From positions 150,538,001 through 150,602,000 of the forward strand of contig CM059431.1 in assembly GCA_030390025.1 (NCBI GenBank): a stretch of 64,000 nucleotides of DNA, written 5' to 3'. This stretch comes from Squalus acanthias. Taxonomy: Eukaryota. The position numbers and the translations under genes are program-made. This document shows, one piece after another, positions 701-62,744 of the stretch (position 1 is the first letter of the stretch; each line of letters begins with the position of its first letter). Below the pieces are notes generated by a model. The model ran no database searches and was not told the DNA's origin. It saw only the letters and a list, made by a program, of their open reading frames with translations.

Positions 701-703
701 ACC

Positions 704-2512
704 CTACCTCCAGTAATGTTAGAATAGGTCATCACCAGTAATGTTCGTGTCGTGTCACTATCAGAAAAGTTAGACAAGAGCCACCAACAGTAATGTTAGA
801 GTAGAATTACCAACGGTGCTGTTAGAGTAGGATCATCACGGTTAATTCTAGAATAATGTCACCACCAGTAATTTAGAGTAGGATCACTTCCAGTAATGTT
901 AGAGTAGAGTCACCACCAGTAATGTTAGAGAAGAGTCGCCTCCAGCAATGTTAAAGTCGAGTCACAACCAATAATATTAGACGAGGGTCTCTACCAGTTA
1001 TATTCGAGTACAGTCGCCTCCAGTAATGTTAGAGTAGTGTCATCCCCAGTATTGTTAGTGTAGAGTCTGCACCAGCAACGTTCGAGTAGGGTCAAGAGCA
1101 ATAAGGTTGGAGTAGAGACCCAATCATTAATGTTAGACAAGTGTCATCAGCAGGAATATTAGTGTAGATTCAGCACCAGTAATGTTAGAATGGGGTCTAC
1201 ACCAGTACTGCTGGACTAGGATTACCACTAGTAATGTTCGTGTAGATTCAGCACCAGCAATAACAGAGTAGAATCACCACCAGCAATGTTCGAGTAGGGT
1301 CAACATCAGTAATGTGAGAGTAGGGTCTCCACCAGTAATGTTAAACTATGTTCATCACCAGTAATATTAGAGTGGGGTCAGGACCAGTAAGTATATTGTA
1401 GAGCCACAGGCCAGTAAAGTTAGAGAAGTGTCATCATCAGTAATGTAAGAGTGGGATCTCCAGCAGTAATGTGATAGTAGGGTCACCACCAGTTTTGTCA
1501 ATGCAGGATCACTACCAGTAATGTTAGAATAGGGTCACCACCAGTAATGTTAGAATAGGTTCACCACCAGTAATGTTTGAGTACAGTCACCACCAGTAAC
1601 GATAGATTAGATTCAGCAGAGGTAATGTTAGAATAGGTTCACCACCAGTAATGTTAGAGTAGGCTAAACTCCAGTAACGTGAGACTAACCAACAGTAATG
1701 TTCGAGTGCGGTCACAACCAATAATGTTAGGGTATTGTCAGAATCAGTAATCTTGGACTAGTGTCAACACCAGCAATGTTATTGTACAGTCACCGCAATT
1801 AACGTTAGAACAGGGTCAACACCACATATATTAGAGTAGGGTCAATACCAGCAATGTTAGAGTAGAGTCACCGTCAGTAATAATTGATTAGAGTCACCAT
1901 CAGCAATGTTAGATTTGCGTCAGTACCAGTAATGTTAGAATAGGGTCACCACCAATAATTTTAGAGTAGAGTCCCCACCAGCAATGTTAGAGTAGAGGCA
2001 CCACCAGTAATGTTAGAGTGCGGTCACCAGCAGTAATGTTACTGTAGAGTCACCACCAGTAATGTTAGAGTAGAGGCACCACCAGTAATGTTCGGTTAGA
2101 ATCCCCACCAGTAATGTTAGAGGAGGTTCTTCACAATTAATGTTAGTGTAGGGTCTCCATCAATAATGTTCGGTTCAGTCATGACCAATAATGTTAGCGT
2201 AGGTTCACCACCAGTAATTGTCGAGTTGATTCATCACCAGTAATGTTAGATTAGGGTCATCACCAGTAATCTTACTATAGGTTCCCACCAGTAATAGTGG
2301 AGTAGAGTCATCACAATTAATGATAGATGATGGCTACTACCAGTAATATTAGTGTAGGATCACCAGCAGTAATATTAGAGTAGAATCATCACCATTAATG
2401 ATAGATGATGGCCACTACCAGTAATATTAGTGTAGGATCACCACCAGTAATATTAGAGAAGGGTGACGGCCAGTAATGTTAGGACAGGATCGTCAACAGT
2501 AACGTTAAAGCG
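704..2512. repeat. Tandem array of a degenerate 26-bp unit (consensus about CACCACCAGTAATGTTAGAGTAGGGT), about 70 units
   Basis: The period can be read directly, e.g. 1999-2090. Units are adjacent with no unique spacers. Confidence 0.95.
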
Positions 2513-2699
2513 TTACTTATGGAATGGATGAGAGAATATTTCACCAAATTATGTGAGGCCCTGAGAAGCTAACACAGAGATTTGGAGAGATGTTCCCTTC
2601 AGGTTTCACATGGCGGGTGCAGAGCGCATTCCCTCTGGAATTAACTCCCTTTCATTGTTTTTAATGGACGGAGTTTCATGGACTCAGATGTACAATTTC

Positions 2700-2815
2700 C
2701 CCATTGGGCGCACTGAAGCGGAAAATCGCACCTTGTTTGTTAAGTGGCTGTAACTAAGTTCAATTATTGTGTAACCTCACTTTCTCACCAGGGCACGGAT
2801 TGTTCTATAAAGGGG
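2700..2815 (+). promoter_or_regulatory. Candidate promoter of GPCR gene 1: reverse CCAAT (ATTGG, 2704-2708) and TATAAA (2806-2811)
   Basis: TTCTATAAAGGGGGAG lies about 80 bp upstream of the ATG and is conserved in the paralog at 21755-21770. Confidence 0.6.
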
Positions 2816-2888
2816 GAGCATTTACGGATCTCAGATAAACGCCAGTCGGAACTGTAATGCAGGACAGAATTCACACAGTCTTCTGAAA

Positions 2889-2958
2889 ATGGCACGGCCA
2901 ATAATTCTACAGATAAAGGACATATACTATCATTTTCTCGCAGTCTTTGGTATTCTCG
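2889..2958 (+). CDS. GPR139-like class A GPCR, gene 1, coding exon 1 (MARPIILQIKDIYYHFLAVFGIL)
   Basis: ATG at 2889, 70 nt, donor G|GTAAGT at 2959. Splices in phase 1 to 4548. Homologous exons occur at 19180, 21841 and 61672. Confidence 0.88.
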
Positions 2959-3464
2959 GTAAGTCAATGCATCCTGTTGTTTAATAGTTGTTAACGAACT
3001 CACTGTTAATGATTATGTTACAGATTCCGTGAAGATCATTTATCTACCGGGATAATTTGGTGAATATCAGCGGGAATCCGATCAGTTTGCCCGGCCGGTT
3101 AGGCGCTACTCTGGCCGGCAGATCTTGGGCACGGGGCAGTCAACTTCCCTCTCTACACTGAGGGAGGGCGAGGCTGATTCCACGGCCCCTCCAACAGTAT
3201 ATCGTCCATTAAAGAATGTGTTGCTTAGTGTCCATAGCATTTATTTCATTTGTCCCGTGGTTCCCTGTCTATTTTATGGTGATAATTGCTCGGACTGCAG
3301 CTACCTCCACCCAACAGCTGAATGTTTTATTGAATCCATATATTTCCAATAATTGCTGCGAAATTATATTTAACCGCTGTCTGAAGTTTGGTGGAAGGGA
3401 GTCGGAATTTGAGTCCCTCTATATTGAATATTCAATGTTTCATTCCTTTTAAATCAATTTTTTA

Positions 3465-4405
3465 AGATATAAATAAATGACCTGGATATTGGAATACAGT
3501 GTAGAATTTCTAATTTTGCCGATGACACCAAACTTGGTGGTGTGGCAAACAGTAGCTGCAACAGGACATAGAAAGGCTAGCAGAATGGGCAGACAAGTGG
3601 CAGATGGAATTTAATACAGAGAAGTGTGAGGTGATGCATTTTGGCAGAAGGAACAGGGAGAGGCAATATACACTCAGTGGCACAGTTTTAAAGATTGTGC
3701 AGGGACAGAGGGACCTGGGAGTTAATGTGCATAGGTCCCTGATGGTGGCGGGACATATTGAGAGAGTGGTTAACAAAGCATATAGGATCTTAGGCTTCAT
3801 AAATAGAGGTATTGAGTACAACAGTAGAGAAGTTATGCTGAATCTTTATAAAACGCTAGTTAGGCCACAACTGGAGTATTGCGTCCAGTTCTGATCACCA
3901 CACTTTAGGAAGGATGTGAAGGCCCTTGAGAGGGTGCAGAGGAGATTTCCCAGAATGTTTCCGGGGATGGGGGTTCTTGGCTACAAGGACAGGTTGAAGA
4001 AGCTGGATTTTGTTTAATTAGAGCAAAGGAGGTTGAGCGGTGATTTGATTATGGCGGGTTTGGATAGGCTAAACGGGGAAAGTCTGTTCCCAGTAGTTGA
4101 TGGTAAAAAGACTAAGGGACACAAATTTAAGGTTTTGGGTAAGAGATACAGGGGGGTGGTGAAGAAAAACTTTTTTACGCAGTGAGTGGTGAACACCTGG
4201 AACTCACTACCGACGGAAGTGGTGGAAGCGGAGACACTCAATGTTTTCAAGGGCTCACTGGATAGGCACTTGAGGGAAATAATCTTGTAGGGCTACGGGG
4301 ATAGCGGGGGGCGGATGAGACTGACTGGAGTGCTCTACAGAGAGCCGGAACGGACTCGATGGGCCGAATGCCCTCCCTCTCTGCCGTAATGTCTGTATGG
4401 CTCTT
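3465..4405 (+). mobile_element. 5'-truncated CR1 LINE (RT C-terminus and 3' tail) in the intron of gene 1
   Basis: FADDTKLGG, KCEVMHFG and LVRPQLEYCVQF motifs. The segment is absent from the paralogous introns. Confidence 0.9.
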
Positions 4406-4547
4406 TGACTCCTCAATGCTCGCCTATATGGCAAAAAAATCAATGTAGGTAACGCTAAGTAGGAACACATCTGAGCATTCCCCACAATAAGCTGTGATGT
4501 TTATCCGGGTGACCCTGTTAATAAACTCTTCTCCCTCTTCCTTACAG

Positions 4548-5422
4548 CGAACCTAGTAACAATCCTGATTCTCTCCAGAGGAAATTGCGGCCTTTCCAAA
4601 TGTATCTCGATCTACATGTTGGTCATGGCGACAGCAGATCTACTGGTCATCATCTTCCATATACTGGTGTTTCAGATTTTCTGTTACCACTTTCCGCATT
4701 CATTCCTGTACTACACTGCCGTGTGTAACTCCATTCATTACATCAATACCGTTACCCTGGATATGTCGGTGTGGTTTACAGTCTTGTTTACTTTTGACCG
4801 ATATGTAACTATATGTTGTCAGAAGTTTAAAACAAAGTATTGCACAGTGAGAACTGCGGCAACTGTTTTAACAACTGTCACTGTGCTGGTCTGTTTAGAG
4901 AATATCCCCTTTGCTTTCTCCTATCAATCTCAACGAATCATTAACAATGTTTCCTGGGGATGCCGCCCCAATGAAGCCTTTTATTCATCGCCTGCAGGCA
5001 TAGCCTATTTCCGCATTCAAAATATTTTAGTTCCATGGTTTGCTGTTGCTTTGATATTACTGTTTAATTGTTTGACAGTCAGACGCATTGTAGTCAGCAG
5101 TAGGGCCCGCAGGGGACTCCGGGGTCACTGCAGTGAGAATCAGAGCGATCCAGAGATGGAAAGCCGGAGGAAATCCATCATTTTACTCTTCACTGTATCG
5201 GGCAGTTTTATACTGTTGTGGTTGACATCTGTCGTGAGTAACTTGAAGAACAGCCTGGCCGTTTACTACAAAGGTGAATATGAAACCCCTGCATACATCC
5301 TGGCTGAAAGCGGATATATGCTCTTATATTTGAGTTCCTGTACAAACACCTGCATTTATGCAGCGACACAAACCAAATTCAGGCAAGATTTGGTGAAGAT
5401 GGTGAAATCTCCTGGACATTGA
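4548..5422 (+). CDS. GPR139-like class A GPCR, gene 1, coding exon 2 (spliced product 314 aa)
   Basis: Acceptor CTCTTCCTTACAG|CG at 4547/4548, in frame with ORF 4616-5422. Motifs: (A)NL in TM1, MATADL in TM2, FDRY in TM3, ECL2 Cys, NTCIY in TM7, and KFR helix 8. Confidence 0.9.
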
Positions 5423-6494
5423 TTCTGATATTGGTTAATAAAATGAAGAATTAAACCATAACTTCCTGTCCTAACTAGAGCTCAATTACAGCCCGTGTTC
5501 CGTTTTAGAATGGCAATCTTTCCCTTGGGACAAAAGCGGATTGTTCTTGTGAAAATGAACAGGTATCAGGAAATATTATTCCCACTTTGTGCCGTGTGTT
5601 TGATGTCTGCTGCTTTCCCCGTGTGAACATAATCGATTCCCGCTAAAACAGCGCCCTTCCCGCTCAAGATTCAAGGAGAACAGTCATGACGGAGCTTCAG
5701 CAGTGGAGTAGAACATGTGTGCGGTCAGCATTAACTACCTCACACAGCAGCTACTGGAATGAGACGCTCAGTTTAATTAACAGATAGACATTCCTTTAGT
5801 GTAGAAACAATGTGTTACAATGGTGTTTATTTGTAATTCTGTAATCTTGGTGTGAATGTTGCAGGCGCTGGACTCCCCATCAGACTCCGCCCCCCATTGT
5901 CACCTGGACCAATAGAACGGGGCCCTGTCTCCTGATCAGTGTTTAATGATGGAGACAGTAGGAACTTGACCCGTTAATGTGACATTAGACATCTTTGTTC
6001 ACAGATATTTACTGAAAATCTCAAATGTTCATCAGTTTGTTGGAATGTTATAAGAGGGGAAATGACTGTATATCCCAATTAGTCCTTCTCAGCGTTTACC
6101 CTCCAGCCGATCAAATAGTTCCAATCACTTTATCCGCCCGGTCTCAACATCAATTCAACCTATTTTTGTTCACACAATTTAGTCTCCAATTTTGACATAA
6201 TTTCTGCCTCTGTTACTTCCACAGCTTCACCAATCTCCATATAAAGAGGAGTCTCTGGCCACCCGTTCTAAATCTCTTCAATCCATTCCTTAATCTATAG
6301 CCGTTAGTTCCAGATCCTTCAAATAATGGCAGCAGTCTGCTTCTTTCTATTCTGTCCCGTACCTTCTTAACCTAAAGCACCTGGGCACAACTCGCCAAAA
6401 CATCTCATCCTGGTAACAATTCACAATCTAGTACAAGTCAGGTAAGTGTAGTAAAGACAGTTAATTGATTGCTTTCTCTTGGAGATGAAAGCGG

Positions 6495-9400
6495 TTTACA
6501 TAGGATATACAGCACAGAAACAGACCATTCGGCCCAACCAGTCCATGTCGGCGTTTAAGCTCCACTCGAGCCTCCTTTCATCTTTCCTGATCTAACTCTA
6601 TCAGCACAAACCTATATTCCCTTCTCCCTCCTATTCTTATCCAGCCTCCCTTCAAATGTGTCTATACTGTTTGCTGGAACCACTCCCTGTGGTAGCGAGG
6701 TTCACATCCTCACATTCTATTGGTAAGAACTTTCTTATGAATTCCGTATTTGATTTCTTGGTGACTATCTTACATTGATGGCCTTTAGTTTTGATCTTCC
6801 CCACAAGTGGAAACATTCTTTCTCTGTCTACTCTATCAAAACCTTTTCATATTTTAAACACCTCTATTAGGTCACCCCTCAGCCTTCTCTTTTCAATAGA
6901 AAAGAGACCCAGCCTGTTCATACCTTCCTGATAGGTATATCCTCGCAGTTCTTGTATCATCCTTGTAAATATTATTTGCACCCTCTCCAGTGCCATTATA
7001 TCTTTTTTATAATATGGCGACCAAAACTGTCCGCAGTTCTCCAAGGTGGTATTATTAAGGTTCGATACAAGTTTCGCATAATTCTCTACTTTTCAATTCT
7101 ATCCCTCTTGAATTAAACCCGAGTGCTTGGTTTGCTTTTTTATGTGTCGCTTGCATTTATAAACCTGCGTCGCTGGTTTTCGTGATTTGTGTATTTGTAA
7201 TTCAAGATCGCCTTGCTTTTCTCTCCCATTTAGATTCTTATTTTCCAAATAATATGAGACTTTCTTATTTTTCTTACCAAAATATAACGCCTCCCATTTA
7301 TCTGTGTTGAAATGCATTTGCCCTTTCTGCAAGTTTATTAATGACTTCTTGCTATTTGTTGCAGCCCTCCTCAGTATTGACTATCACAGCCGCTCCCTTC
7401 CCCCAATTTGGTGACATCCGCCAATTTAGAAATTGTGTTTTTGATTCCAAAGTCTAAATTGTTAACATAAATTGTGAACAAACATGGTCCCAGCACTGAT
7501 CATTGTGGGACCCCACTTTTCATATTCTGCCGCTCCGTATAGCTAACCTTTAGCCCTACTCTCTGCTTTCTGTCTTGAAGCCAGCTAGCTATCCATTCTG
7601 CTACTTGTTGCCTCACTCCGCATTCTCTGACCTTTTTCATTAGTCTGTTATGCAGTACTTTATCGAAGGCTTTTAGAAATCTCGAAAAATTATGTCTACT
7701 ACTTTACCCTTGTCAACGCTCTCTGTTACCTCTTCAAAGAATTCAATGATTGTGGTCAAACTAGACTTTCTCTTTTGAAATGCATGCTGACTAATCATTA
7801 TTATATTTTTAGCTTCCAGATGTTCTTCTATTTTTTCCTTTAGTAGGGATTCCATTATTTATCCTAACACCGATGTTAAGATGACTGCTCTATAGTCCCA
7901 TGGACATGTTCCATTTCCCTTCTTAAATATAAGTATTACTTTAGCTATCCTCGAGTACTTTTGAACAATACAGTTTCCCAACGAATTATTAAATATGTGT
8001 AATAGTGTCTATTCTGTCGCTTCCCTAGATTCCTTTAAAATGAACGAATGTAATCCGTCTGGAGCAGGGCATTTATCCTGTTTGAGTTCGATTAGTTTAT
8101 TTAATAGTTCTCCTTTTTAATTTTAAATGCGGTTATATCATTTCTAATGTCATTTTCCGATGTCACGTCTCCCTGACCGTCTCCCTGGTAAATACTGAAG
8201 TAAAGTAATTATATAATATTTCTGGCATTTCGCTATCGCTGCCATTGATTTTTTCCTGACCGTTCCTGAATGGCCGTATTCCCATCCCAAATTTCCTTTT
8301 TATTTATGTGCCTGTAGAATATTTTATTACGTTGTTTTATGTTCCTTACTAATTTAATCGCAATTCCCCTTTGCCTTCCTATTGTTTTTTTGACTTCTCT
8401 ATTATCTTCGCATTCTCCCTTGCCATGATCTCCCCTGTTGTCCATTTTCTTAGTGTATGCCTCTCCTTATCCTCAATTCTTCCCTTATGTCTTTATTCAT
8501 CCATGGCATCCCAATAGTGTTTAGTTTGTTCTTGATTTTTAGTGGAATATATTTTCCTGGTCCTGCTGAATAAAAGTTTCCCATTGTTGTTCTACATCAT
8601 TGCTTGCCAATATTGTTGTTACATTTTATGTTCCCAATTTCTATTCTCAGCCCCTCAAAATCGCATTTTCTCCAATCTATTACCCTGTTCGTCGTCATAC
8701 TTATGTTCTTCTCAATTATTACCTGAAATCGTATTACATTATGGTCACTATTACCAAGGTGCTGTCCCACTTTTACTTCTCTTATCTGCTCTGGTTCATT
8801 CCCCATTACTCGATCCAGTAGCTAATTCTCCCTTTTCGACTTGAAGGGGAATCATGCTTGAAAATTTGCTCGAATTCTTTGACGACGTAACAAAAGGGTA
8901 AATAAAGGGGAACCAGTGATGTGGTGTATTTGGACTTCCAAAAGGCATTTGATAAGGTGCCACACAAAAGATTACTGCACAAGATAAAAAATCACGGGAT
9001 TGGGGTAATATACTGGCATGGGTGGAAGATTGGCTATCTAACAGAAAACAGAGAGTTGGGATAAATGGTTCATTCTCGGGTTGGCAATCAGTAACTAGTG
9101 GTGTTCCGCAAGGGTCAGTGCTGGGACCCCAACTCTTCACAATCTATATTAACGATTTGGAGGAGGGGACCAAGTGCAATATATCCAAGTTTGCTGACGA
9201 TACAAAGATGGGAGGAAAAGCAGTGAGTGAGGAGGACATAAAAAACCTGCAAAAGGACATAGACAGGCTAAGTGAGTGGACGGAAATTTGGCAGATGGAA
9301 TATAATGTTGGAAAGTGTGAGGTTATGCACTTTGGCAGAAAAAAATCAAAGAGCAAGTTATTATCTAAATGGAAAGAAACTGCAAAGTGCTACAGTACAA

Positions 9401-11560
9401 AGGGATCTGGGGGTCCTGGTGCATGAAACACAGAAGGTTAGTATGCAGGTACAGCAGGTGATCAGGAAGGCCAATGGAATCTTGGCTTTTATTGCAAGGG
9501 GGATGGAGTATAAAAGCAGGGAAGTCTTGCTTCAGTTATGCAAGGTGCTGGTGAGGCCACACCAGGAATACTGCGTGCAGTTTTGGTTTCCATATTTAAG
9601 AAAAGATATACTTGCTCTCGAGGCAGTTGAGAGAAGGTGCACTCGGTTGATTCCGGAGATGAGGGGGTTGACTTATGAGGAAAGGTTGAGTAGGTTGGGC
9701 CTCTACTCATTGGAATTCAGAAGAATGAGAGGCGAACTTATCGAAACATATAAGATTGTGAGTGGGCTTGATCGGGTGGAGGCGGGGAGGATGTTTCAAC
9801 TGATGGGTGAGACTAGAACTAGGGGGCATAATCTTAGAATAAGGGTCTGCCGTTTCAAAACTGAGATGAGGAGAAACTTCTTCACTCAGAGGGTAGTAAA
9901 TCTATGGAAATTGCTACCTCAGAGAGCTGTGGAAGCTGCGAAATTAAATACATTTAAAACGGAGATAGACAGTTTCCCAGCTGATAAGGGAATTAAGGGT
10001 TATGGGGAGCGGGCAGGGAAGTGGACGTGAGTCTAGCTTCGGATCAGCCATGATCCTATTGAATGCGGAGCAGGCCCGAAGGGCCATATGGCCTACTCCT
10101 GCTCCTACTTCTTATGTTCTTATGTTCTTATGTTACCTATTGGGTTCGAAAGGAGTCCTTTGCACATAGTAGGAACTCCATTCCCTTATCCCCTTTACCT
10201 AGCTCTTCTGCCCAATTAATTTCGGGGCAGTTTAATCTCATGTTTCGTTTTTACTAATTTCTCTCATTTGTTTCCAAATTTCTTCCTTCATCTCTTCTTC
10301 CACCATTAGTGGTCTGTAGACTTCCTCTAGGAGTGTGATTCAACCTTCATTTTCTTTTATCTCTATGCACTTGGATTCTATTTCTGTCTTACTGATAGCT
10401 GCGTAATTTTTTCTACTGCCATTATGTTACCTATAATAAGCACAGCTACTCCATCTCCCTTTTCCCCTCTCTATCTTTTCTAAATATAACCTGCAATGTT
10501 CAATTCCAAGTCCTGATTTTTCTGTAGCCATGTCTTTGCATTCCCTACAATATCTGGTTCCTCGCAACGTATTAGTGCCTCCAGTTCCCCTGTTTTATTA
10601 CGGACATAGTGCACATTGCTGTACAGGGTGTTTAACTCATGCTTAATTGCAGTTCTTGTCACTTTATTTTTAACCATATTTTAACTCTCTAGTTCAATAA
10701 CTCTATTTATTAACTAGAGTCTATGCCCTCCCTTAGTTTATTCCTTCCTATGCTCTCCGTTCCTGTTTCGTTTATATTTAGTCTGGTTTAATTTCTTATA
10801 GATCCCTTTTTACGAATGCTTCGTGCATTCAGATAAACAGCCTTTAATTTTAACTTTTTACCATTATTCCCTGCTTTCTCCTCATTCGCTGATGCCCTAT
10901 TACCGTTAAGCTCTCTGTCCTTTCCTGTCACACTCTGCTTATCTTTACCCAAATCGATACACTGCTCAATTGCCTTGACTTTTAGTTTAAATCCCCATTA
11001 ACAGTCCGTGTTATTCGATTCACCAGGATACAGGTCCCAGCCCGGTTTAAGTGGAGCCCCTCCCAATGGAACAGCTCACTCTTTTCCCAGAACTACATTC
11101 ATTTTCACTCCCCCCACTCGAATGGCCTCCTACACCACGCTACCGTGGTCAGTTTGCTCATCCATACTGCAGACTTCGCCCTCATCCACACAGGCAGCAA
11201 GAACCTCATACCTGCTGAATACGTACTAAGCCGAGGCTCCTCCAGCACTGCACCTGGGGTCCCCTTACCTGCCTGAGTCACAGTCACACCCTCCTCTCCC
11301 TGACCACTAGCCAGGCCTGTGGCACTACCTAACCTAAGGGGTGTGACTGACTCCAGGTTCAAAGTTACCAGGTAACTCCCCCCCCGCCCTGATGCCTCGC
11401 ACTGTCTGCACCTCGGTCTCCTGTTGAACAACTCCGTGCTAAAGTTCCTCGAGGTGCAGGCACTAACTGCAGACATGGTCGTCAGGGATCGCGATGCTCG
11501 TCACAAACATTCCACTTGATGCTGTCACGGCACACAACCTGCACTTCCCTCACTATACAT
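6495..11560 (-). mobile_element. Older, nearly full-length degenerate CR1 LINE (ORF1 remnant, EN, RT, tail), interrupted at 8840-10133
   Basis: ORF1-like VTPLR...GQGEEGVT (11105-11476). EN fragments at 10480-10677 and 8597-8806. RT fragments at 6847-7855. Tail near 6500. Confidence 0.85.
8840..10133 (+). mobile_element. Younger 5'-truncated CR1 LINE nested in the opposite orientation
   Basis: [10 protein letters not shown] and FADDTK RT motifs in ORFs 9022-9426 and 9272-10030. Ends in a (TTCTTATG)n tail. Confidence 0.92.
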
Positions 11561-12949
11561 CCTCGTTTTAGTTATTTAATTCGGAATGGCTTGTATCGGA
11601 TGCCTCCATCTGCCTGATCTTGGGTTATCGCTGTGTATGCTGAAGTGTGGTGTTGCTCGTGAATGCGATACCAGCATGCGATGTGCATGATGAAGATGCC
11701 CTGAAGAATGGGTCCAAGACATGGTCAGTCACGCTGAAGTCAGCACTACAAGAAATGGTTAATGTAGCTCTGGATAAAGTAATGTGTAAAGCAAATGGGT
11801 AGAGATCTGCAGAAGAGAATAGATCGAGATAGATATATGATGCTGATGAGATTTAGTTTTTGTGTTGGCCTTAAGTAATCTAACGCCAACATTCGGGTAT
11901 TGTAAGGAAAGAGTTAATTAGACTGTCCTAAAGTTTGCTAATGTTATGCTATATTGGTTTATCTTTCTATAGCGTTAATGTATAATATTTTGCGTTTGCC
12001 TGTTAAGCAGGGATGTACAAGTCTACTTAAAGTAACAGTGGACTGATGTGCCAGGGCCGTTCATGCAGCAATGGTCAGTCTCAGGAGGAAGCAATAAGAG
12101 ATTTATACAACACATGTCATTGCAAACTGATTCATACATTTCAGAGAACTTTAATCATTTGCTACAATGTGGGAAGATAGTTAGTTCCAGAACGGAAACA
12201 TCGGGGCTAGCATCATCATTTTAATTGGTACGAATGATACAGAAATAAAAGTAGATTTATAATTAATGGTTTCACTTGGTAGAATTGAAATGCTGTGGAT
12301 CAAGAGTGTAACTATTGATAAGATAATGACTCGAATGGAATTACGCTTGTAAGCCCACCAGAAAAAGAGATTGTTTCGGAAGGAAAACTATCCTTATTGA
12401 TCAACGATAAGTCGAGGGCGCTGATGGGGTGCGAAACAACTAGTGCCCGGGCGCGCCGCTTTTTTTGCGCCGCTCGCGAAATTGATCGTGACCTCAATCG
12501 ATCGTGCAAGGCCCCGGTAGTGTCCCGGACCGGAGATTGAATGGTGCCCCCTGCCTTACCTCCTGCCGCTAGAAGCGACATGTTGAGGGGAGCGTTTTGC
12601 AGTCTGGAAGGGACTGGGGAGCGCTATTTACAGGCGATCGCTTCCTGCCTTATTTTTATCTGCGACATTTTTGCACCACGCATTCTGCGAGAGAGGGAGA
12701 GACTTCTGGAGAGATTCAACGCTGTGTGAACGAGTTTTGGGTCCTGAGCAGCAGTTTGCAGGCTGATTTTGATTTGACCTTCCTTGCATCGATTTAGAAG
12801 CGACTATGTGGGCTGCACTCTGAGCTCTTTCCCTGTGTATCCTCATTGTTCTTTCCAGCAGATTTGATGTACAGCTCTCTCCAGGGCGAGATGCAAGGCT
12901 GCAATGAGCAGGGTGTGGATGGAGAGCAAGATCGACACTCCCCTTTAGG

Positions 12950-13282
12950 AGAGGGATGGAGTCGGTGACTATAGAATGGAGTTTGTGGAGGGGACTGAAA
13001 ACAATGGCTTCGGTCTTCCCAAAATTTATTTGGGGAAAATTTCTGCTCATCCAGTACTGGATGTCGGACAAACAGTTTGACAATTTAAAGACGGATGGAG
13101 GGCTCGAGAGCAGTGGTGATGAGGTAGAGCTGGGTGTCGTCAGCGTACATGTGGAAACTGACGCCGTGCTTTCGGATGATGTCGCCAAGGGGCAGCATAT
13201 AGTGGAGAAATAGGAGGGGGTCAAGGATAGATCTTGTGGGTCCTCAGAGGTAATGATGCAGGAGTGGGAAGAGGGAATTTCG
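12950..13282 (-). mobile_element. L2-clade LINE RT fragment
   Basis: An alternative minus-strand frame reads [16 protein letters not shown], followed by LSDIQYWMSRNF..KTEAIVF. Confidence 0.8.
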
Positions 13283-14384
13283 CTTCTAAGCCCACCAGAC
13301 AAAGAGAACGTTATGCAGGGAAAACTAACCTTACTGATAAAGGATATTTCGATGAAAGTCTCATATATGAATTTACATTTTAACTATCATATATTTATAT
13401 CATGCAACATTATGTGGATGGTCACAGAGAGGGAGTGAGGCAATTGTAATAAAACTGGCTGTTTGTACTGAGTATTCTGATTCTTAAAAGCTTAAGATAC
13501 TGAGCTGAGAACTGTAAGATGTTTCAATCGCAATGCAACCATCATCAGGTGTGGCTGCAATTTGCACCTTTTAACCATATGTTTAAGTACTATTGCATGT
13601 ACCGTGTGCTCAATAAACCTGTGACACCTCACGTCAATTTTCAAGCACGTTATGGAAAACTTTACTCTAACAACAGCATGCGTACTTTAATAGTCCGTGG
13701 GGTTCATATATTATTTGTGATTAAGTGCCCCTTTACCCGTCACTCGTTCACGTTCCACTTTATGCTGACGTTCTCAAAACAAACAAACTCCATTTGTTTT
13801 CAGGTCCCCGGAGCCCCGGCTCTGCCAATCCGGCTCGCATCCATCTTCTGGGAGAAGTGGTGATGTGTTGCTGGTAGGACTGAGCAGGAAGTTGATTCTC
13901 ATTTAAGTAGTTTTAGACGACGAACACTATTTATGCCAAGAGTCAGGCAGCAGGTTGAGGTTTTAATTCCGTCAGTCAGTGATGTATCTGCACCCAGCTA
14001 CAATCGTGAGACGGCGCCTTGTGATCAATGACATCATCCAATATAAACAAGTATTATACAACTCAAAGCCATGCAGAAGTAACCATTGCATTACCGTGTC
14101 AAATTCAATCCCATACGGTTGTGCTTCTTCTTCCTGTTTCTAATTTAATAGTTGTTGGGTTTCCTTGAGTCCCCCTATTTCTAATATTAAAGTTACTGTG
14201 TGTCCCTGATATTCTCATCTCCTCTATTTCTAAATAAACGTTTGCTGCATTTCCCTCAATTCCCATATCCGTCATAACATCGCCGACAGCACGTCGGAGA
14301 AACATGGCCGACGGCACGTCAGACAGCCAGCAGACACACGTTCCTCGAACACAGAGGGAGAGAGAATAACGCTGACTAAAGCTC

Positions 14385-14940
14385 AATGACACACACAGCC
14401 TGACGTCACACAGAGTGCAGACTGACGTCACACAGACTGATGCCACACAGACTGCAGACTGATGTAACACAGGCTGCAGTCAGAGTCACGCAGACTGCGG
14501 ACAGAGTAACAAAGACTGCGGACAGAGTAACAAAGACTGCAGACAGAGTCTAACAGACGGCAGCCTGAAGTCACACAGATTGCAGAGTTACACAGACTGC
14601 AGACTTAAATCACACAGACGGCAGAATTACGTCACACTGACTGCAGACAGAGTAACACAGACTGCAGTAAACGTCACATAGACTGCAGACGGTCGTCACA
14701 CTGACTGCAGACAGACGTCACACAGAATGTAGACTGACGTCACACAGGCGGTAGACAGACTCGCACAGATTGTAGATTGACGTCACACAGACTGCAGACA
14801 GTCGCACAGACTGCAGACAACTTCACATAGACTGCAAACTGACGTTACACAGACTGCAGAAAGCGTCACACAGACTGCAGACAGAGTCACACAGACTGCA
14901 GACCGACGTCACACAGAACGCAGACAGATTCACACAGACT
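14385..14940. repeat. Minisatellite, about 20-22-bp unit (CACACAGACTGCAGACTGACGT / CACACAGACTGCAGACAGAGT)
   Basis: Tandem units are visible directly. Several contain TGACGTCA. Confidence 0.85.
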
Positions 14941-15031
14941 TGGCTTTATCAGGGCAGCTGTGGGCACGGAATGAAGCGGCTGCAGTTCCCACCAGAGCCA
15001 CTCAGTGTCGCTATTTCCGTCGCCCATCAGA

Positions 15032-15104
15032 GCCCCGATAGCTCAGTCGGTAGAGCATCAGACTTTTATTCTGAGTGTCCAGGCTTCAAGTCCCTGTTCG
15101 AGCG
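15032..15104 (+). tRNA. tRNA-Lys(TTT), probably a pseudogene
   Basis: The 73 nt match vertebrate tRNA-Lys3 (GCCCGGATAGCTCAGTCGGTAGAGCATCAGACTTTTAATCTGAGGGTCCAGGGTTCAAGTCCCTGTTCGGGCG) with 5 substitutions. These include two in the acceptor stem and GGTTC>GCTTC in the B box. Confidence 0.85.
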
Positions 15105-15434
15105 CTGCTTTCTATCAATGGAAACACCATTTGATTTAGACTTCTAAGCAACGACTTTGTTTATAACCTATCAGTAAAGTTGGTTTATATTTCAAGAAAA
15201 ATGAAAAATATTCTTGTATTATATTGAGGCTACAGGAAAGATCAGCGTGAATTGACAGTTTTTTTTATGGTGCTGAGGCCTATCCAATACATCATAAACA
15301 TTTAGCAGAATTTCCTTGCTTTGTACTCTATTCCTCTGTTAATAAAGCCAAAGTTCCCATTTGTTTTTCAACTACGTTCTCAACTTGTCCTGCCACCGTC
15401 AAAGATTTGTGGACATAAACTCCCGGCGGTGAGT

Positions 15435-16610
15435 TTAGGCCTTCGATAAGGTACCCCATAATAGACTGATGCACAAGGTCAGAGAATGCGGAGTCAGGGG
15501 ACTAGTAGCAGAATGGATTGCTGGCTTGCTTCTGAAAAAAAGCAGAGTGTAGGATTAAAGTGTAGCTATTCACAGTGGCAGAAGTTGAGTAGAGGTATTC
15601 CACAAGAATCAGTGCTGGGATCACTGCAGTGCACAATTTACAGTAACGATTTAGACTTAGGAATCAAAAACACAATTTCTAAATTTGCGGATGACACCAA
15701 ATTACGGGGGCGGGGGAGGGTGGGGGGATAGGCAATACTGAGGAGGACTGCAACAAGTTACAGGAGGACATGAATAAACTTGCAGAATGGGCATATAATT
15801 GGAAAATGAAGTTCAACAATGATAAATGTGAGGTATTACATTTTGGTAGGAAGAATAGGGAGGTCACTTATCACTCGGAGTGTTTGCGTCTAGGTGGGGT
15901 AGAGAGACAAAGGATCTAGGAGTACAAATACACACATCTCTCAAAGTTGCGACACAGGTTAGAAAGGCCATAAAAAGCATAACAAGCATTATGGTTTATT
16001 TCTAGAGAGATAGAATCGAAAAGTAGGGAAGTTATGCTAAACCTGTATCGAACCTTGGTTCGACCACACTTAGAGTGCTGCGTACAGTTCTGGTCGCCAT
16101 ATTTTAAAAAGCATTGAATTGAGAGGCACTGGAGAGGGTGCAGAAAATATTTACAAGGATGATACTAGAAATGTGAGAGTATACATATCAGGAAAGGACG
16201 AACAGGCTGGGTCTCTTTTCTCTTGAAAAAAGTAGGCTAAATGGTGACCTAATAGAGGTCTCTAAAATTATGAAAAAAGTTGATAGAGTGGATACAGAGA
16301 GAATATTTCCACTTATGAGGAAGAGAATAACTAGAGGACATTAATAAAAGCAAGTCACCAAGAATACAATCGGAAATTCAGAAGAAACTTCTTTACCCAA
16401 GGATTGGTGAGAATGTGAAACTCGCTACTACAGGGAGTGTTTGAAGCGAATAGGATAGATGCTTTTAAGGGGAGGCTAGTCAATGAGGGATAAAGCAAAT
16501 GGAGGGTTATGCTGCTAGATTTAGATGAGGAAAGACGGGAGGAAGTTCGTGTGGAGCATAAACGCCGGCATGGACAGGTTGGCCGAATCGCCTGTTTCTG
16601 TGCTGTATAG
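15435..16610 (+). mobile_element. Degenerate 5'-truncated CR1 LINE
   Basis: GIPQESVLG and SKFADDTKL motifs plus a CR1 3' end; many stops. Confidence 0.85.
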
Positions 16611-17045
16611 AGTCATTGAGTCATAACGGCACAGAAGGAGGCCATTCGGCCCATCGAGGCCGTGCCGGCTCTCTGTAGAGCAATTCAGTCAGTTCCATTC
16701 TCCCGCTGTATCCCCGTATCCCTGCAGATTTATTTCCCTCAAGTGCCTATCCAGTCTCCCCTTGGAAACAATGAGTGTGTCCGCTTCCACCACTTCCGTC
16801 GTACAGTGAGATCCAGGCCCTCACCACTCGCTGCGTAAAACAGTTTTTCCTCACACCCCGTTGTATCTCTTTCCCAAAACCTTAAATCTGTGTAGAACCA
16901 CAGGAAAATAGAAGCAGGAGTAGGACATTCGGACCTTCGAGCCTGCTCCGCCATTCAATATGATCATGGCTCATCCTCTATCTCAGTACCATATTCCCGC
17001 TCTATCCCCATACCCCTTGATGTCTTTTGCTTCTAGAAATCTACG
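16611..17045 (-). mobile_element. Two short CR1 3'-end fragments
   Basis: Reverse-complement CR1 tails at about 16611-16890 and 16895-17045. Confidence 0.7.
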
Positions 17046-17058
17046 TATCAAAAGGTAA

Positions 17059-17171
17059 TGTCAGAAGAGGGTTTCGAAACATCGTCTGCTCGAAAGGGAC
17101 CAGAATTCACCAACCTTTGGTAAGGATTAACATGTTGTATGAGTCTGGCGCCTTAGACCACTCAGCCTGAC
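17059..17171 (-). pseudogene. Intron-containing tRNA-Leu(CAA)-derived pseudogene
   Basis: Minus strand reads GTCAGG-CTGAGTGGTCTAAGGCGCCAGACTCATA[~30-nt intron]TTCTGGTCC...TTCGAAACCCTCTTCTGACA, followed by TTTT. It has a 4-nt deletion near the 5' end and the anticodon reads CAT. Confidence 0.75.
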
Positions 17172-17389
17172 AACTATGCAACTGTGTCCCCTTGCCCTTG
17201 TAACACCAACTAGTGGGAACAACCTTTCCCCGTCTAGCCTATCCAAAGTGCGAGAAATATTTCCTGACACCTGTTGATTTTCACAAGAACCATCGGTTTA
17301 TGTCCCAAAAGAAGGCGGCAATTCTCAAACGGATCACGGGCTGTAATTGAGCTCGAATTAGGACAGGAAGATATAGTTTAATTCTTCAT

Positions 17390-18284
17390 TTAATTAACCA
17401 ATATCAAAATCAATGTCCAAGGGGATTTCACCACCTTCTTCAGCTCTTCATTGAATTCGGTTCGGGGTCGCTGCATAAATACACATGTTTCTACAGGAAC
17501 TCAAATACATGAGCATATATCCGCTTTCAGCCAGAATGTATTCAGGGGCTTCATAATCATCCTTGTAGTAAACGGCCAGGCTGTCCGTGAAAATACTCAC
17601 GGTAGCTGTAATCCACAAGAGTAAAAAGCTGCCCAATATAGTGAAGAGTAAAATGATGGATTTTCTCCGGCTCTCCTCTCTGGATCGCTTTGATTCTCAC
17701 TGCTGTGGCCCCGGAGTCCCCTGCGGCCCCCACTGCTTACTACAATGCGTCTGACTGTCAAACAATTAAACATTCATATCAAAGCAAAAGTCAGCAATGG
17801 AACTAAAATACTTCGCAGTTGGAAGAACGATACACATCCAGACGATGAAAAAAAGGCTTCATTGGAGCGGCAACCCCAGGAAACATTGTTAATGATTCGT
17901 TGAGATTCATGGGAGAAACGAAAGGGGATATCCTCTATACAGAACAGCACAGTGACAGTTATTAAACCTGCTGCGGCAGTTCACACTGTGCAATACTTTG
18001 TTTTCAACTTCTGACAACATATCGCTAGAAATCGGTCAAAATTGAACGAGACTGTGAACCACACCGACATATCCAGTGTGACAGTATTGATGTAATGAAT
18101 GGACTTACACATGGCAGTGTAGGACAGGACTGAATGCGGAACGTGGTAACAGAAAATCAGAAACACCAGTAACTGGGAGATGATGACGTAAGATCTGCTG
18201 CCGACATGGCCACCATGTAGACCGAGATACATTTGGAAAGGCCGCAATTTTCGCTGGAGAGAATCAGGCTTGTCAGTAGGTTCG
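17390..18284 (-). pseudogene. GPR139-like GPCR pseudogene (gene 2), exon 2
   Basis: Acceptor TTACAG|CG at 18285/18284. Collinear with gene 1. One-nt deletions at about 18190 and 17675; in-frame TGA at 17981-17983 and 17774-17776. Confidence 0.9.
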
Positions 18285-19110
18285 CTGTAAGGAAGAGGGA
18301 GAAGAGGCCAGTAACGGGGATACTCAGATAAATCTCACAGGATATTGTGGGGGAATGCTCAGATGTGTCCCTACTTAGCGTTACGTACCCCCATTTGTTT
18401 TACTATATAGGCGAGCGTTGAGGAGATTTGATTTAGAAGAAATGAAACACTGAATATTCAATATAGAGGGTCTCAAATTCCGACTCCCTTCCACCGTACT
18501 TCAGACAGCGGTTATATATAATTTCGCTGCAATTGCTGGAAAGATATGGCTGCAATAAAATATTCAGCTGAGAAACATATATTTCCATACATGTCGAAAA
18601 CTCTGCTGCGCTTTTTCTATTTACGGTCGCCCCAGGGGGGAGCTGCTCGGTAACAGAGCGGGAGCTGGTGGAGCCGCGAAGGTTCTTTACAGCCGAGCGG
18701 AGGGGAGCAACTCCCTGAGCGGCTATTGTTGCTCATAATATCTTTCAAAGTCTCCTGCAAACCGAGCAATTACCAACTGATAATAAACAGGGAACAAATG
18801 TACAAATGAGATTGTAACCATGCACACTAGGCAGCACATGCTGTAGTGATCCATATAGTGTTGGAGGGGCCGCGGAATCAGCCTCGCCCTCCCTCAGTAT
18901 AGAGAGGAAAGTTGAGCGCCCGGTGCCCACGATCTACCTGACAGAATAGCGCTTCACCGGCCGCGCGGACTGGTAGGATTCCCACAGATATTTATCAAAT
19001 TATCCCGGTGGCTAAATGACTCTGCAACGGGGACCTTCACGGAATCTGTTACATAATCATTAGCAGTGAGACACTCAACAGCTATTAAACAACAGGATAC
19101 ATTGACTTGC

Positions 19111-19180
19111 TGAGAAAACCAAAGGCTGCAAGAACATGATAGTATATGTCCTTTATCTGTAGAATTATTGGCCGTGCCAT
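19111..19180 (-). pseudogene. GPR139-like GPCR pseudogene (gene 2), exon 1 (MARPIILQIKDIYYHVLAAFGFL)
   Basis: 70-nt homolog of 2889-2958. The donor reads A|GCAAGT instead of G|GTAAGT. Confidence 0.88.
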
Positions 19181-19209
19181 TTTTAGAAGATTGTGTGAAT
19201 TGGCCATCA

Positions 19210-21412
19210 TTTATATTAGAGTAGGGTCGCCATCGTTTATATAAGAGTAGGGTCACCACCAGTAATTTTAGAGTAGGGATATTTCCTGTAAATTTAGACT
19301 AGGTTTACCACGAGTAATGTCAGAGACGGGTCACCACCAGTAATGTTACAGTAGTGTCACCACCAGTAATGTTTGAGTCGGTTCACCACCAGTAATGTTA
19401 GAGTACGGTCACCGCCACTAATGTTAGAATAGGGTCACCACCATTAATGTTAGTGTAGGTTCACCACCAGTAATGTTAGAATAGGGTCAGCACCAGTAAT
19501 GTTATTGTAGGGTCACTGCCAGTAATGATAGATTAGGGTCACCACCAGTAATGTTAGATTAGGTCACCACCAGTAATGTTATGAAGGTTCACCACCACTA
19601 ATTTCACAGTACATTCACCACCAGTATTGCTCGAGTAGGTTCGCCCCCAGTAATGTGAGCCTTGGGACATCAACACTAATGTTAGTGCAGCCTCAGTGCC
19701 AGTACCGTTCGAATAGTGTCACCACAAGTAATGTTATACTCAGTTCACCACCAATAAGGTTAGAGTAGATGTAACTCCAGTAATGTTCTTATCAGATCAT
19801 CAGCAGTAATGTTAGAGTAGACTCACCATCATTAATGTTAGAGGAGGGTCACCAGCAGTAATGTAAAAGTAGGTTCACCGCGAGTAATGTTAGTAGGATT
19901 ACCATCAGTAATGTTAGAATAGAGTCACCACCAGTAATGTTAGTTTAGAATCACCACGAGTAATGTTAAAATAGGGTCACCACCAGTAATGATAGAGTAG
20001 GCTCACCACCAGGAATGATAGGGTCTGGTCACCACTATTAATGTTAGACTAGGTCCACCACCATTAATGTTAGTGTTGGTTCGGCAGCGTTAATGATAGT
20101 CAAGGTTCACCACCAGTAATGTTAGAATATATTCTCCACCAGTAATGTTAAAGTAGGATACCCGACAGTAATATTATATATGTGTCACCACCAATAATGT
20201 CAGCGTTGGTTCACCACCAGTAATGTAATAGTTGGAACACCGGCACTAATGTCAGTGTAGGGTCACCACCAATAATGTTAGACTAGGTTTAACACCGGTA
20301 ATGTTAGAGTCGGGTCAATACCAGTAATGTTAAAGTAGGGTCATCAGCATTAATGTTAGAGAAGGTTCATCACCAGTAAAATATAAGTAGGATCACCACC
20401 AGTAATGTTAAAGTATTGCCATTACCAGTAATGGTAATGCAGATTCCCCGTCAGTAATGTTGGAGTACAGTCATCACCAGTGATGTTAAAATAGACTCAC
20501 CACAAGTAATGCTAAAGTAGGGTTACCGCCTTTAATGGTCGAGTAGGGTCCCCAGCAGTAATGTTAGAGAAGAGTCACCACAATTAATGTTAGTGTAGGG
20601 TCACCATCAGTAATGTTAGAGTAGGGTAACCACCAGTAATGTTAGAGTAGGGTCACCAGCAATAATGTTAAACGAGGGCAACACGGTGGCATAGTGGTTA
20701 GCACTGGTGCCTCACAGCGCCAGGGACCCGGGTTCGAATCTGACCTCGGGTGACTGTCTGTGTGGAGTTTGCACATTCTCCCCGTGTCTGCGTGGGTTTC
20801 CTCCGGGTGCTCCGGTTTCCTCCCACAGTCCAAAAATGTGCGGGTTAGGTTGATTTGGCTATGATAAATTGACCCTTAGTGTTAGGGGGGTATTAAATAT
20901 GTGGGGTTTCGGGGGTAGGGTGGGATATGTGTACTGTGGGGATTAAAGCAGGGACAGGGTACTGGATTTGGATGATCAGCCATGATCGTAATGAATGGTG
21001 GAGCAGGCTCGACGGGCCGAATGGCCTACTCCTGCTCCTAGATTCTATGTTTCGATGTTAATGTCACCACCAGTAATGTTACAGTATGATCACCGCCAGT
21101 AATCTTAGAGTAGGGCCACCAGCATTAAAGTTAGAGCAGATTCACCAGAAGTAATGTTGAAATAGATTCACCGCTACTAATGGTAGAGTAGGGACCCCAG
21201 CAGTAATGTTGGAGAAGAGTCACCACAATTAATGTTAGAGTAGGGTCAGCACCAGAGATATTAGTTTAGAGTCACCACCAGTAATGTTAGAGTAGGGTCC
21301 CCAGCAGTAATGTTACAGTATAGTCACCACCAGTAATGTTAGAGTAGAGTCCCCACCAGTAATGTTACAGTAGAGTCACCAGCAGTAATGTTAGATTAGG
21401 GTCACCACCAGT
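19210..21412. repeat. Second array of the 26-bp unit, same orientation as 704-2512, interrupted by a SINE
   Basis: Same CACCACCAGTAATGTTAGAGTAGGGT unit. About 1.8 kb once the SINE is removed. Confidence 0.95.
20676..21059 (+). mobile_element. tRNA-derived V-SINE (HE1-like) with a CR1-type tail
   Basis: A box (TGGCATAGTGG), B box (GGTTCGAATC), V-domain core TGTGTGGAGTTTGCACATTCTCCCCGTGTCTGCGTGGGTTTCCTCCGG, and a tail shared with the CR1 copies in this window. Confidence 0.9.
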
Positions 21413-21649
21413 TTTTTTTAGATCCTTTTCACAACAGCAGTGTTAGCGCCGATTCATCTTCACAATGTAAAACCAATTTTAAATATGTAATGGATGACAG
21501 AGGATTTCACCCGATTATTATGAGGCCCCAAGAACCTAACGCCTTGACCGGGAGTGGTGCTCCCTTCAGAAATCACATCTCTGGCGCAAAGATCACTTTC
21601 CGATCATTAATTTTAAAGGGCGGATTTTCATGTACTGAGGGACACATTT

Positions 21650-21770
21650 TCCCCATTGGCATCCCCGGTGCACTGTAGCGAAAAATTGTTTGTTACGTGA
21701 TTGTAAGAAACGTCAGTTATTGTGGAAGCTGATTTTTTCACGGGGCACCGAGTGTTCTATAAAGGGGGAG
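21650..21770 (+). promoter_or_regulatory. Candidate promoter of GPCR gene 3: ATTGG at about 21655 and TATAAA at 21758-21763
   Basis: Paralogous to 2700-2815, with the same TATA-to-ATG spacing. Confidence 0.6.
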
Positions 21771-21840
21771 CATTTCCGGATCTCAGATACACTCCAGTCA
21801 GAAACGTGAACCGGACAGAATTCACACAACCTTCTATAAA

Positions 21841-21910
21841 ATGGCACGGCCAATAATTCTACAGATAAAGGAAATTTACTATCCAGTTCTCGCAGCATTT
21901 GGTATTCCCG
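21841..21910 (+). CDS. GPR139-like class A GPCR, gene 3, coding exon 1 (MARPIILQIKEIYYPVLAAFGIP)
   Basis: ATG at 21841, 70 nt, donor G|GTAAGT at 21911. Confidence 0.9.
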
Positions 21911-51497: not shown

Positions 51498-51519
51498 GAT
51501 AGACAGGTAGATAGACAGG

Positions 51520-51565
<46 letters not shown>

Positions 51566-51567
51566 TT

Positions 51568-61671: not shown

Positions 61672-61741
61672 ATGAGATTGCAGACATTTCTATTGGCGAA
61701 ACGTATTTATTATCCCATCCTCTCAGCCGTCGGTACCCCTG
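61672..61741 (+). CDS. GPR139-like class A GPCR, gene 4, coding exon 1 (MRLQTFLLAKRIYYPILSAVGTP)
   Basis: 70-nt exon with the IYYP.L...G.P motif, donor G|GTAAGT at 61742, and a (TA)n tract about 90 bp upstream. Confidence 0.85.
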
Positions 61742-62635: not shown

Positions 62636-62744
62636 TTGTCAATGGAACTGAATATCAGGCGCTGCGAATAACGGGCGGCCGAACCGATACCGCCCGTATT
62701 TCGCTAACGCCCGAAACGAATTACTCGGTCAGAGTTTTTAAAAT

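What the first reader, a model, noticed from the sequence alone, without database searches (positions are those of the whole stretch)
704..21770. A ~1.8-kb 26-bp satellite sits directly upstream of the promoter of both intact receptor genes
Seen: arrays 704-2512 and 19210-21412 have the same orientation and nearly equal length (about 70 units after removing the SINE). They end about 300-350 bp before the TATA box and are followed by homologous sequence. Most units keep the AGTAATG core while the flanking bases vary. Inference: the duplication cassette is satellite + promoter + gene. The array could act as a multimerised TAAT homeodomain enhancer, analogous to the HD sites in olfactory receptor promoters, or as a recombination substrate driving the expansion. 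Gene 4 lacks it.
Basis: partly seen in the sequence, partly recalled or inferred. Interest (0 to 1): 0.75.

Follow-up and report, generated by a model that had tools for sequence, protein, structure and literature searches.

The report
TAAT-preserving repeat before shark receptor genes
About 70 copies of a 26-base repeat sit just upstream of two related shark receptor genes, and one four-letter word in the repeat (TAAT) has changed far less than the rest, which hints that the repeat may bind a regulatory protein, although no binding or effect on the genes is shown.

Summary
Both arrays are real: 704-2512 (1809 bp) and 19203-21412 (1824 bp without a SINE). They share orientation and end 293 and 345 bp before the TATA boxes of two GPR139-like elasmobranch GPCR genes. 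A contig of another species bridges the same array-promoter junction. The scan found this cassette before, 317 kb away (e1-7939187). The addition here is the per-position test. TAAT columns differ from consensus at 7.1% against 19.9% elsewhere, TAAT is the best 4-base window in each array separately, and this survives context, duplicate, rare-allele and overdispersion controls. The rest has drifted about as far as synonymous sites. Corrections: full AGTAATG is kept in only 63 of 137 units (TAAT in 105). The hexamer is TAATGT, not the Lhx2-type TAATGA/TAATTG. Gene 1 has a C-terminal frameshift. Array 2 also abuts an inverted, promoter-less pseudogene. Best reading: a co-duplicated array whose TAAT core is under constraint, probably from a homeodomain-type protein (0.45; activation versus silencing is open). 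Genome-wide restriction to these genes, expression and binding could not be tested.

The parts
261..703 (+). Decayed endonuclease (APE-type, LINE-like) fragment that runs into the distal end of array 1
   Evidence: Pfam Exo_endo_phos_2 E=0.0018, below the curated cut-off; Atlas hits 0.93-0.95 to endonuclease clusters; no longer relative at E<=1e-10
704..2512 (+). Array 1: 70 segments of the 26-bp unit, mean 81% identity to consensus
2513..2888 (+). Gene 1 promoter and 5' UTR; TATAAA at 2806; CCCATTGG near 2700
   Evidence: alignment to the gene 3 promoter
2889..2958 (+). Gene 1 exon 1 (MARPIILQIKDIYY...)
   Evidence: spliced translation
3556..4404 (+). CR1-like fragment in the gene 1 intron, absent from the gene 2 intron
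   Evidence: self-BLAST; very high contig depth
4548..5422 (+). Gene 1 exon 2 (7tm_1); frameshift near the C-terminus ends the protein at 314 aa
17244..19201 (-). Gene 2: inverted pseudogene, closest to gene 1 (dS 0.17), with 3 frameshifts and 2 in-frame stops. Exon 1 is 19180-19111. Homology ends about 20 bp upstream of its ATG, at the edge of array 2; its own promoter is gone
19203..20672 (+). Array 2, distal part (57 segments); the first two units read TATAAA on the minus strand (19210, 19236-19238)
20673..21058 (+). SINE-like insert; its 3' part matches 11 other places in the window; the head looks tRNA-derived (by eye, from recall)
21059..21412 (+). Array 2, proximal part (15 segments, two of them partial)
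21413..21840 (+). Gene 3 promoter and 5' UTR; homology to gene 1 starts at 21484; TATAAA at 21758
21841..21910 (+). Gene 3 exon 1
22717..23636 (+). Gene 3 exon 2; intact 329-aa class A GPCR, 'probable GPR139' family of sharks and rays
61672..64000 (+). Gene 4 (exon 1 61672-61741; exon 2 from 63846, cut by the window end): divergent paralogue, 45-52% identical over 58-63 aa, no array and no promoter homology

Best explanation
The array is the 5' part of a duplication cassette (array, ~300-bp spacer, TATA promoter, two-exon GPR139-like receptor gene) of one receptor subfamily. It was nearly uniform when the lineages of genes 1 and 3 separated, or has been reshuffled since. Most columns have then drifted at about the neutral rate, while the TAAT core (and the A two bases before it) is held about 2.5-fold more tightly. 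The likeliest cause is weak selection for many binding sites of a TAAT-recognising, homeodomain-type protein, so that the array acts as a homotypic site cluster that sets the state of the neighbouring promoter. Shown: position, orientation, linkage, uneven conservation. Inferred: selection, the binding protein, any effect on transcription. Whether it activates or silences cannot be told; I lean slightly to activation because of the fixed distance to the TATA box.
For: TAAT columns mismatch 39 of 548 (7.1%) against 19.9% for the other 22 columns and 15.0% for the other A/T columns. TAAT is the best 4-base window in array 1 and in array 2 separately. A trinucleotide-context model from old repeats in the window expects 95 changes; 39 are seen. 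AGTA occurs twice in the unit; the copy overlapping the core has 60 changes and the other 121 (p=9e-7). The effect stays after removing 20 near-duplicate units (7.9% vs 20.6%) and when only minor alleles are counted (4.75 vs 12.1 per column). An overdispersed null gives p=2.5e-4. TAAT/ATTA in old interspersed repeats is not protected (44 of 256, 17.2%, vs 15.4% overall). The core is looser beside frameshifted gene 1 (27 of 276) than beside intact gene 3 (12 of 272), p=0.019, while the other columns do not differ (p=0.41). Indels are scarcer than in the flanks (13 per 644 substitutions vs 22 per 409, p=0.007). Cross-array divergence of 30% matches synonymous pS 0.33. A 364-nt contig from organism D aligns at 2367-2728 without gaps, 146 letters in the array and 216 in the promoter; a 211-letter piece from a second individual is collinear with array 1 at 86%.
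Against: No binding, chromatin or expression data. The site is TAATGT, not the TAATGA/TAATTG named for Lhx2. 32 of 137 units have lost TAAT. Selection on single sites among ~70 redundant copies should be very weak (inference). Among T columns alone, conservation is not significantly uneven (p=0.22), so the signal rests mainly on three A columns. The array mutates oddly (ts/tv 0.70 vs 1.02 in flanks and 1.33 in old repeats), so its mutation or repair process may differ from my null models. The array 1 versus array 2 contrast is one pair of arrays. Gene 4 of the same family has no array. Near-consensus units draw very high contig depth in three runs, and where those copies lie is unknown.
Confidence: 0.45

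Rival explanations
1. Neutral passenger. The array arose once beside the ancestral promoter and is carried along by segmental duplication. Uneven columns come from founder variation, from repair or conversion tracts centred on the A/T core, or from mutation biases of this G-rich repeat.
For: Non-core columns have drifted as far as synonymous sites. Unit divergence is Poisson-like (mean 4.67, variance 4.69), as in passive decay. The substitution spectrum is unusual. A SINE insertion is tolerated. Gene 4 does without the array. The earlier follow-up e1-7939187 leaned this way (an AI note, not independent evidence).
Against: Context, internal AGTA, minor-allele, de-duplication and overdispersion controls all leave the core too conserved. 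The same window is best in both arrays although they share no clear unit order. The core is looser next to the damaged gene.
Confidence: 0.3
2. Recombination substrate. The arrays promote unequal exchange, deletion and inversion and so drive birth and death of the receptor family; the conserved core would be a recombination or pairing signal rather than a transcription-factor site.
For: Both distal ends are junctions: a truncated endonuclease fragment at 703/704, and an inverted promoter-less paralogue at 19201/19203. Recent local block duplications exist (array 1 units 63-64 vs 66-67; array 2 units at 20550/20576 vs 21195/21221). Unit order is not shared between arrays although simulations detect it in 60 of 60 runs at each of three settings.
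Against: Units within an array are no more alike (69%, 71%) than between arrays (70%), so there is little ongoing homogenisation. At about 70% identity homologous recombination should be inefficient (general knowledge). A second individual matches 1013-1253 with 2 differences and no gap.
Confidence: 0.15
3. The array belongs to a mobile or dispersed repeat (for example a Helentron-type element with internal tandem repeats, or a dispersed satellite) that landed beside the ancestral gene; the conserved core reflects that element's biology.
For: One Atlas hit for the fragment left of array 1 is a Helentron-named cluster (0.93, rank 9). Near-consensus units are very abundant in contigs.
Against: The endonuclease fragment is absent beside array 2, and the two arrays share no distal flank. 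No stray unit lies elsewhere in 64 kb. Most Atlas hits are endonuclease-reverse-transcriptase clusters.
Confidence: 0.1

Closest known systems
Mouse odorant-receptor homeodomain enhancer: H element (3 x TAATGA in 92 bp) and engineered 4x21/5x21 multimers (bioRxiv 10.1101/2022.05.05.489571, passages seen; review PMC12547500, passages)
   Same: Several TAAT-core sites upstream of a member of a large class A GPCR family; there, multimerising the site raises the probability of gene choice.
   Different: Here a natural array of ~70 units in front of single genes. The hexamer is TAATGT rather than TAATGA/TAATTG, the genes are not ORs, and neither olfactory expression nor singular choice is known.
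Beta-satellite / zinc-finger gene cluster of human 19p12 (Eichler et al. 1998; named in e1-7939187; I saw only its title in the reference list of PMC8125562)
   Same: By its title, satellite structures tied to the expansion of a clustered gene family.
   Different: Different unit, gene family and lineage. I could not check that paper for a fixed promoter distance or a conserved protein-binding core.
Transcription-factor-bound satellites: PAX3/PAX9 and FOXD3 on mouse major satellite (PMC8647145, passages)
   Same: Tandem repeats carrying factor sites; binding there represses the repeat and maintains heterochromatin, a model for the silencing version of my reading.
   Different: Those are very large pericentric arrays (general knowledge), not 1.8-kb arrays fixed to single promoters; no factor is identified here.
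GPR139/GPR142 class A receptors, and the elasmobranch proteins automatically named 'probable G-protein coupled receptor 139' (GPR139/142 clade passage in PMC6504862)
   Same: Gene 3 is 50-75% identical to the 120 listed proteins, from sharks and rays; 1873 of 5284 candidates passed E<=0.001.
   Different: The name is an automatic label. Orthology to GPR139, ligands and tissue were not tested.
Trypanosome 70-bp repeats upstream of VSG genes; Plasmodium repeats upstream of upsB var promoters (both recalled, from no call)
   Same: Degenerate arrays at a fixed 5' position of members of a large receptor or antigen family, used in recombination or silencing.
   Different: Parasite antigen families with known switching; nothing comparable is shown here.

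Membership tests
OR-type homeodomain choice enhancer (H element / x21) | Multiple TAAT-core sites upstream of the promoter | tested here: met
   105 of 137 full units keep TAAT; arrays end 293 and 345 bp before TATA
OR-type homeodomain choice enhancer (H element / x21) | Lhx2-type hexamers TAATGA or TAATTG | tested here: not met
   TAATGT 81 on +; TAATGA 7 and TAATTG 7 on both strands of both arrays; motifs as named
OR-type homeodomain choice enhancer (H element / x21) | Core more conserved than its flanks | tested here: met
   7.1% vs 19.9%, with controls
OR-type homeodomain choice enhancer (H element / x21) | O/E (EBF) sites in promoter or enhancer | tested here: inconclusive
   A recalled pattern gave only one-mismatch hits in the three proximal promoters; the arrays were not scanned; no motif library available
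OR-type homeodomain choice enhancer (H element / x21) | Linked gene is an odorant receptor | tested here: not met
   Pfam 7tm_1 only; homologues named GPR139-like
OR-type homeodomain choice enhancer (H element / x21) | Raises the probability of singular expression in sensory neurons | not testable with these tools
   No expression or reporter data
Satellite-gene duplication cassette (19p12 type) | Array at a fixed place and orientation relative to paralogues | tested here: met
   2 of 4 family genes in the window (genes 1 and 3); gene 2 abuts array 2 in reverse; gene 4 lacks it; bridging contig in organism D
Satellite-gene duplication cassette (19p12 type) | Array inherited as a block with the gene (shared unit order) | tested here: inconclusive
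   No anchored diagonal between arrays 1 and 2; best diagonal +16 units, z=3.27, permutation p=0.017; local alignment p=0.41, 0.13, 0.025 at three settings; but a contig is collinear with array 1 at 86% over 211 letters
Satellite-gene duplication cassette (19p12 type) | Array confined to the gene family genome-wide | not testable with these tools
   No genome held; metagenome scans empty
Transposon-internal tandem repeat (Helentron or LINE derived) | Same element flanks both arrays | tested here: not met
   Positions 1-700 match only themselves; the distal flank of array 2 is a receptor pseudogene
Known non-coding RNA | Rfam match over the arrays | tested here: not met
   Only a tRNA at 15032-15104 in 1-24000

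The most novel reading that the evidence does not exclude
Each gene of a subfamily of a very large chondrichthyan GPR139-like receptor family carries its own natural multimer of ~70 homeodomain sites, which sets the probability or level at which that receptor is expressed, as the engineered x21 multimers do for mouse odorant receptors. The array would be a gene-by-gene choice element for an undescribed sensory receptor repertoire, and its reversed edge may even have supplied a replacement TATA box to the head-to-head gene 2.
Probability: 0.2. Interest if true: 0.85.

Novelty: new variant of a known kind. Interest (0 to 1): 0.56.

Why it matters
The catshark has only 5-8 genes in each of the OR, ORA and TAAR families and 35 V2Rs (PMC6368271, passages), yet sharks and rays carry a large GPR139-like family on which my searches found no paper. 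A promoter-proximal array with a selectively kept TAAT core would be a direct handle on how and where that family is expressed. It would also be a natural example of a satellite acting as a homotypic enhancer or silencer that is duplicated with each gene. If the conservation proves mutational, it is an ordinary passenger repeat and a caution for motif tests in tandem arrays.

Tried and rejected
Genome-wide mapping: no genome is held, so the scatter test is open. Metagenome scans found 0 exact matches to the unit and no relative of the receptor among 501 pattern hits; neither is informative. Sequencing runs: no RNA holder listed. The one guessed-RNA run laid (X21) had near-zero depth over most of the array and two short receptor pieces at depth under 3; I draw nothing on expression. 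Contig depth was not used as copy number; only 32 of 72,368 contig pieces were displayed. N-terminal extensions of the 120 listed homologues hold no convincing array-derived peptide (one hit at E=0.026); one Heterodontus protein matches the TATA/5' UTR region. The endonuclease fragment found no longer relative at E<=1e-10 among 1590 candidates, so LINE versus Helentron is unsettled. A coding array is rejected: period 26 puts TAA into every frame on both strands (read from the sequence), and no ORF of 100 aa lies within the arrays. Concerted evolution within arrays is rejected. No divergence gradient along either array. Look-ups of earlier findings by sequence, near place and relatives were empty. 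Paper searches listed nothing on this array or family expansion. I saw listings only, plus term passages of PMC12294341, PMC6504862, PMC13113109, PMC6368271, PMC8125562, PMC8647145, PMC12547500 and bioRxiv 2022.05.05.489571. No supplements were opened, and most subscription papers are outside the library.
Full report
Setting. The window is elasmobranch DNA rich in CR1-like repeats. It holds four members of a two-exon class A GPCR family: gene 1 (+, ATG 2889), gene 2 (-, ATG 19180, pseudogene), gene 3 (+, ATG 21841) and the start of gene 4 (+, ATG 61672). Gene 3 hits Pfam 7tm_1 and 1873 of 5284 candidate proteins; the best 120 are 50-75% identical, come from sharks and rays, and are mostly named 'probable G-protein coupled receptor 139'.

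Observation. TRF finds period-26 arrays at 706-2482, 19203-20670 and 21064-21412. A wrap-around parse gives 70 and 72 segments; 5 partial ones were dropped, leaving 137. Lengths are 1809 and 1824 bp without the SINE. The arrays end 293 and 345 bp before TATAAA, which lies 83 bp before each ATG. No other 26-mer within 8 mismatches exists in the window, and gene 4 has no promoter homology. AGTAATG is intact in 63 of 137 units and TAAT in 105. Gene 1 ends early (314 aa, SPGH-stop, where SPW is the commonest motif, 53 of 120 homologues). It has 24.5 nonsynonymous to 5.5 synonymous private changes, with 45 ambiguous codons left out, so it may be decaying.

Array 2 lies between two head-to-head genes. 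Gene 2 is closest to gene 1 (dS 0.17), has 3 frameshifts and 2 stops, and its homology ends about 20 bp upstream of its ATG, at the array edge. Array 1 begins where an endonuclease fragment breaks off. Both distal ends therefore look like rearrangement junctions (inference), which weakens the equal-length argument.

History. Units average 82% identity to consensus with Poisson-like spread. Pairwise identity is 69% within array 1, 71% within array 2 and 70% between them. No unit order is shared on the anchored diagonal, although simulations find it in 60 of 60 runs at each of three settings; a weak diagonal at +16 units has p=0.017. Synonymous divergence between genes 1 and 3 is pS 0.33, about equal to the cross-array 30% and above the non-coding flanks (22-29%). 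So the arrays were nearly uniform at the split, or were reshuffled, and their non-core columns drift roughly neutrally. In public contigs (4 of 23 listed runs laid at 80% likeness), a second individual matches 1013-1253 with 2 differences; another piece is collinear at 1156-1366 with 29 differences in 211, probably a close paralogue; and a 364-nt contig of organism D spans 2367-2728 without gaps, bridging array and promoter. The junction is thus shared with at least one other species, on one displayed contig.

The TAAT test. The four TAAT columns mismatch at 7.1%, the other 22 at 19.9%, the other A/T columns at 15.0%. Column profiles correlate between arrays (Spearman 0.61), and TAAT is the best 4-base window in each array alone. 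Controls: a context model expects 95 changes against 39 seen; the second AGTA in the unit has 121 changes against 60 for the one overlapping the core; removing 20 near-duplicate units or the commonest variant per column keeps the gap; a column-level permutation gives p=0.0025; an overdispersed null gives p=2.5e-4; TAAT/ATTA in old repeats of the window is not protected (44 of 256). The core is looser beside gene 1 (9.8%) than beside gene 3 (4.4%), p=0.019, with no difference elsewhere. Indels are about 2.7-fold scarcer than in the flanks, though whole-unit indels are invisible to this count. Against: T columns alone are not significantly uneven, so the signal rests mainly on three A columns (8, 11, 12); ts/tv is low (0.70), so the array may mutate by its own rules; and the context control comes from old LINE copies, which are neither independent nor fully neutral.

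Mechanism. I put 0.45 on weak selection for many sites of a TAAT-binding, homeodomain-type protein acting on the adjacent promoter, 0.30 on a neutral passenger, 0.15 on a recombination substrate and 0.10 on a mobile or dispersed repeat. That TAAT is the homeodomain core is general knowledge; no factor was identified. The OR analogy holds in logic: multimerising a 21-bp homeodomain site raises gene choice, and H has three TAATGA in 92 bp (bioRxiv 2022.05.05.489571). It fails in sequence: TAATGT dominates (81) over TAATGA (7) and TAATTG (7). Factor-bound satellites can instead silence (PAX3/PAX9, FOXD3; PMC8647145), and unchosen OR genes are heterochromatic (PMC12547500), so the direction is open.

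Novelty. The scan noted this cassette at another window of this genome (e1-7939187) and the large family in a ray (e1-7813824); both are AI notes that I could check only in part. My paper searches listed nothing on the array or the family. Satellite-gene cassettes and factor-bound repeats are known kinds; a ~70-site TAAT array fixed in front of single receptor promoters would be a new variant. It is not an OR-type enhancer by membership.

Verdict. Real feature; cassette supported; TAAT core conserved beyond the nulls I could build; function unproven; genome-wide restriction untested. Interest 0.56.

Noticed in passing
window 19203-19253: The two outermost units of array 2 share changes that make them read TATAAA on the minus strand, about 30 and 56 bp upstream of the ATG of promoter-less gene 2. 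The three changes would meet by chance in about 3 of 10,000 units (post hoc); one more TATA-like site lies at 20175. Possibly a replacement TATA box, possibly edge decay.
   Followed up: partly
window 2699, 21651, 61556: CCCATTGG (a reversed CCAAT box, by recall) occurs in the upstream regions of genes 1, 3 and the divergent gene 4.
   Followed up: no
window 704-2512, 19203-21412: Transitions/transversions are 259/368 in the arrays against 194/191 in the gene flanks and 892/671 in old repeats; unexplained.
   Followed up: partly
window 14392-14940: A second degenerate tandem array (21/43-bp period, CACACAGACTG-rich), with no match to the 26-mer, next to a tRNA-like sequence at 15032-15104.
   Followed up: no
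window 50625-51248: A 207-aa ORF that looks, from recall only, like the C-terminal part of a core-2/I-branching glycosyltransferase (GCNT type).
   Followed up: no
window 32222-36133 and 53972-57116: Near full-length CR1-like elements in opposite orientations with long ORF1- and ORF2-like frames.
   Followed up: no
window 51498-52299: Long compound GATA/GAAT microsatellite, about 75 and 116 copies.
   Followed up: no
window 20666-20672 and 21055-21061: ATGTTAA flanks the SINE on both sides, and the SINE tail resembles the array's ATGTT: a short target duplication or microhomology-guided insertion.
   Followed up: no
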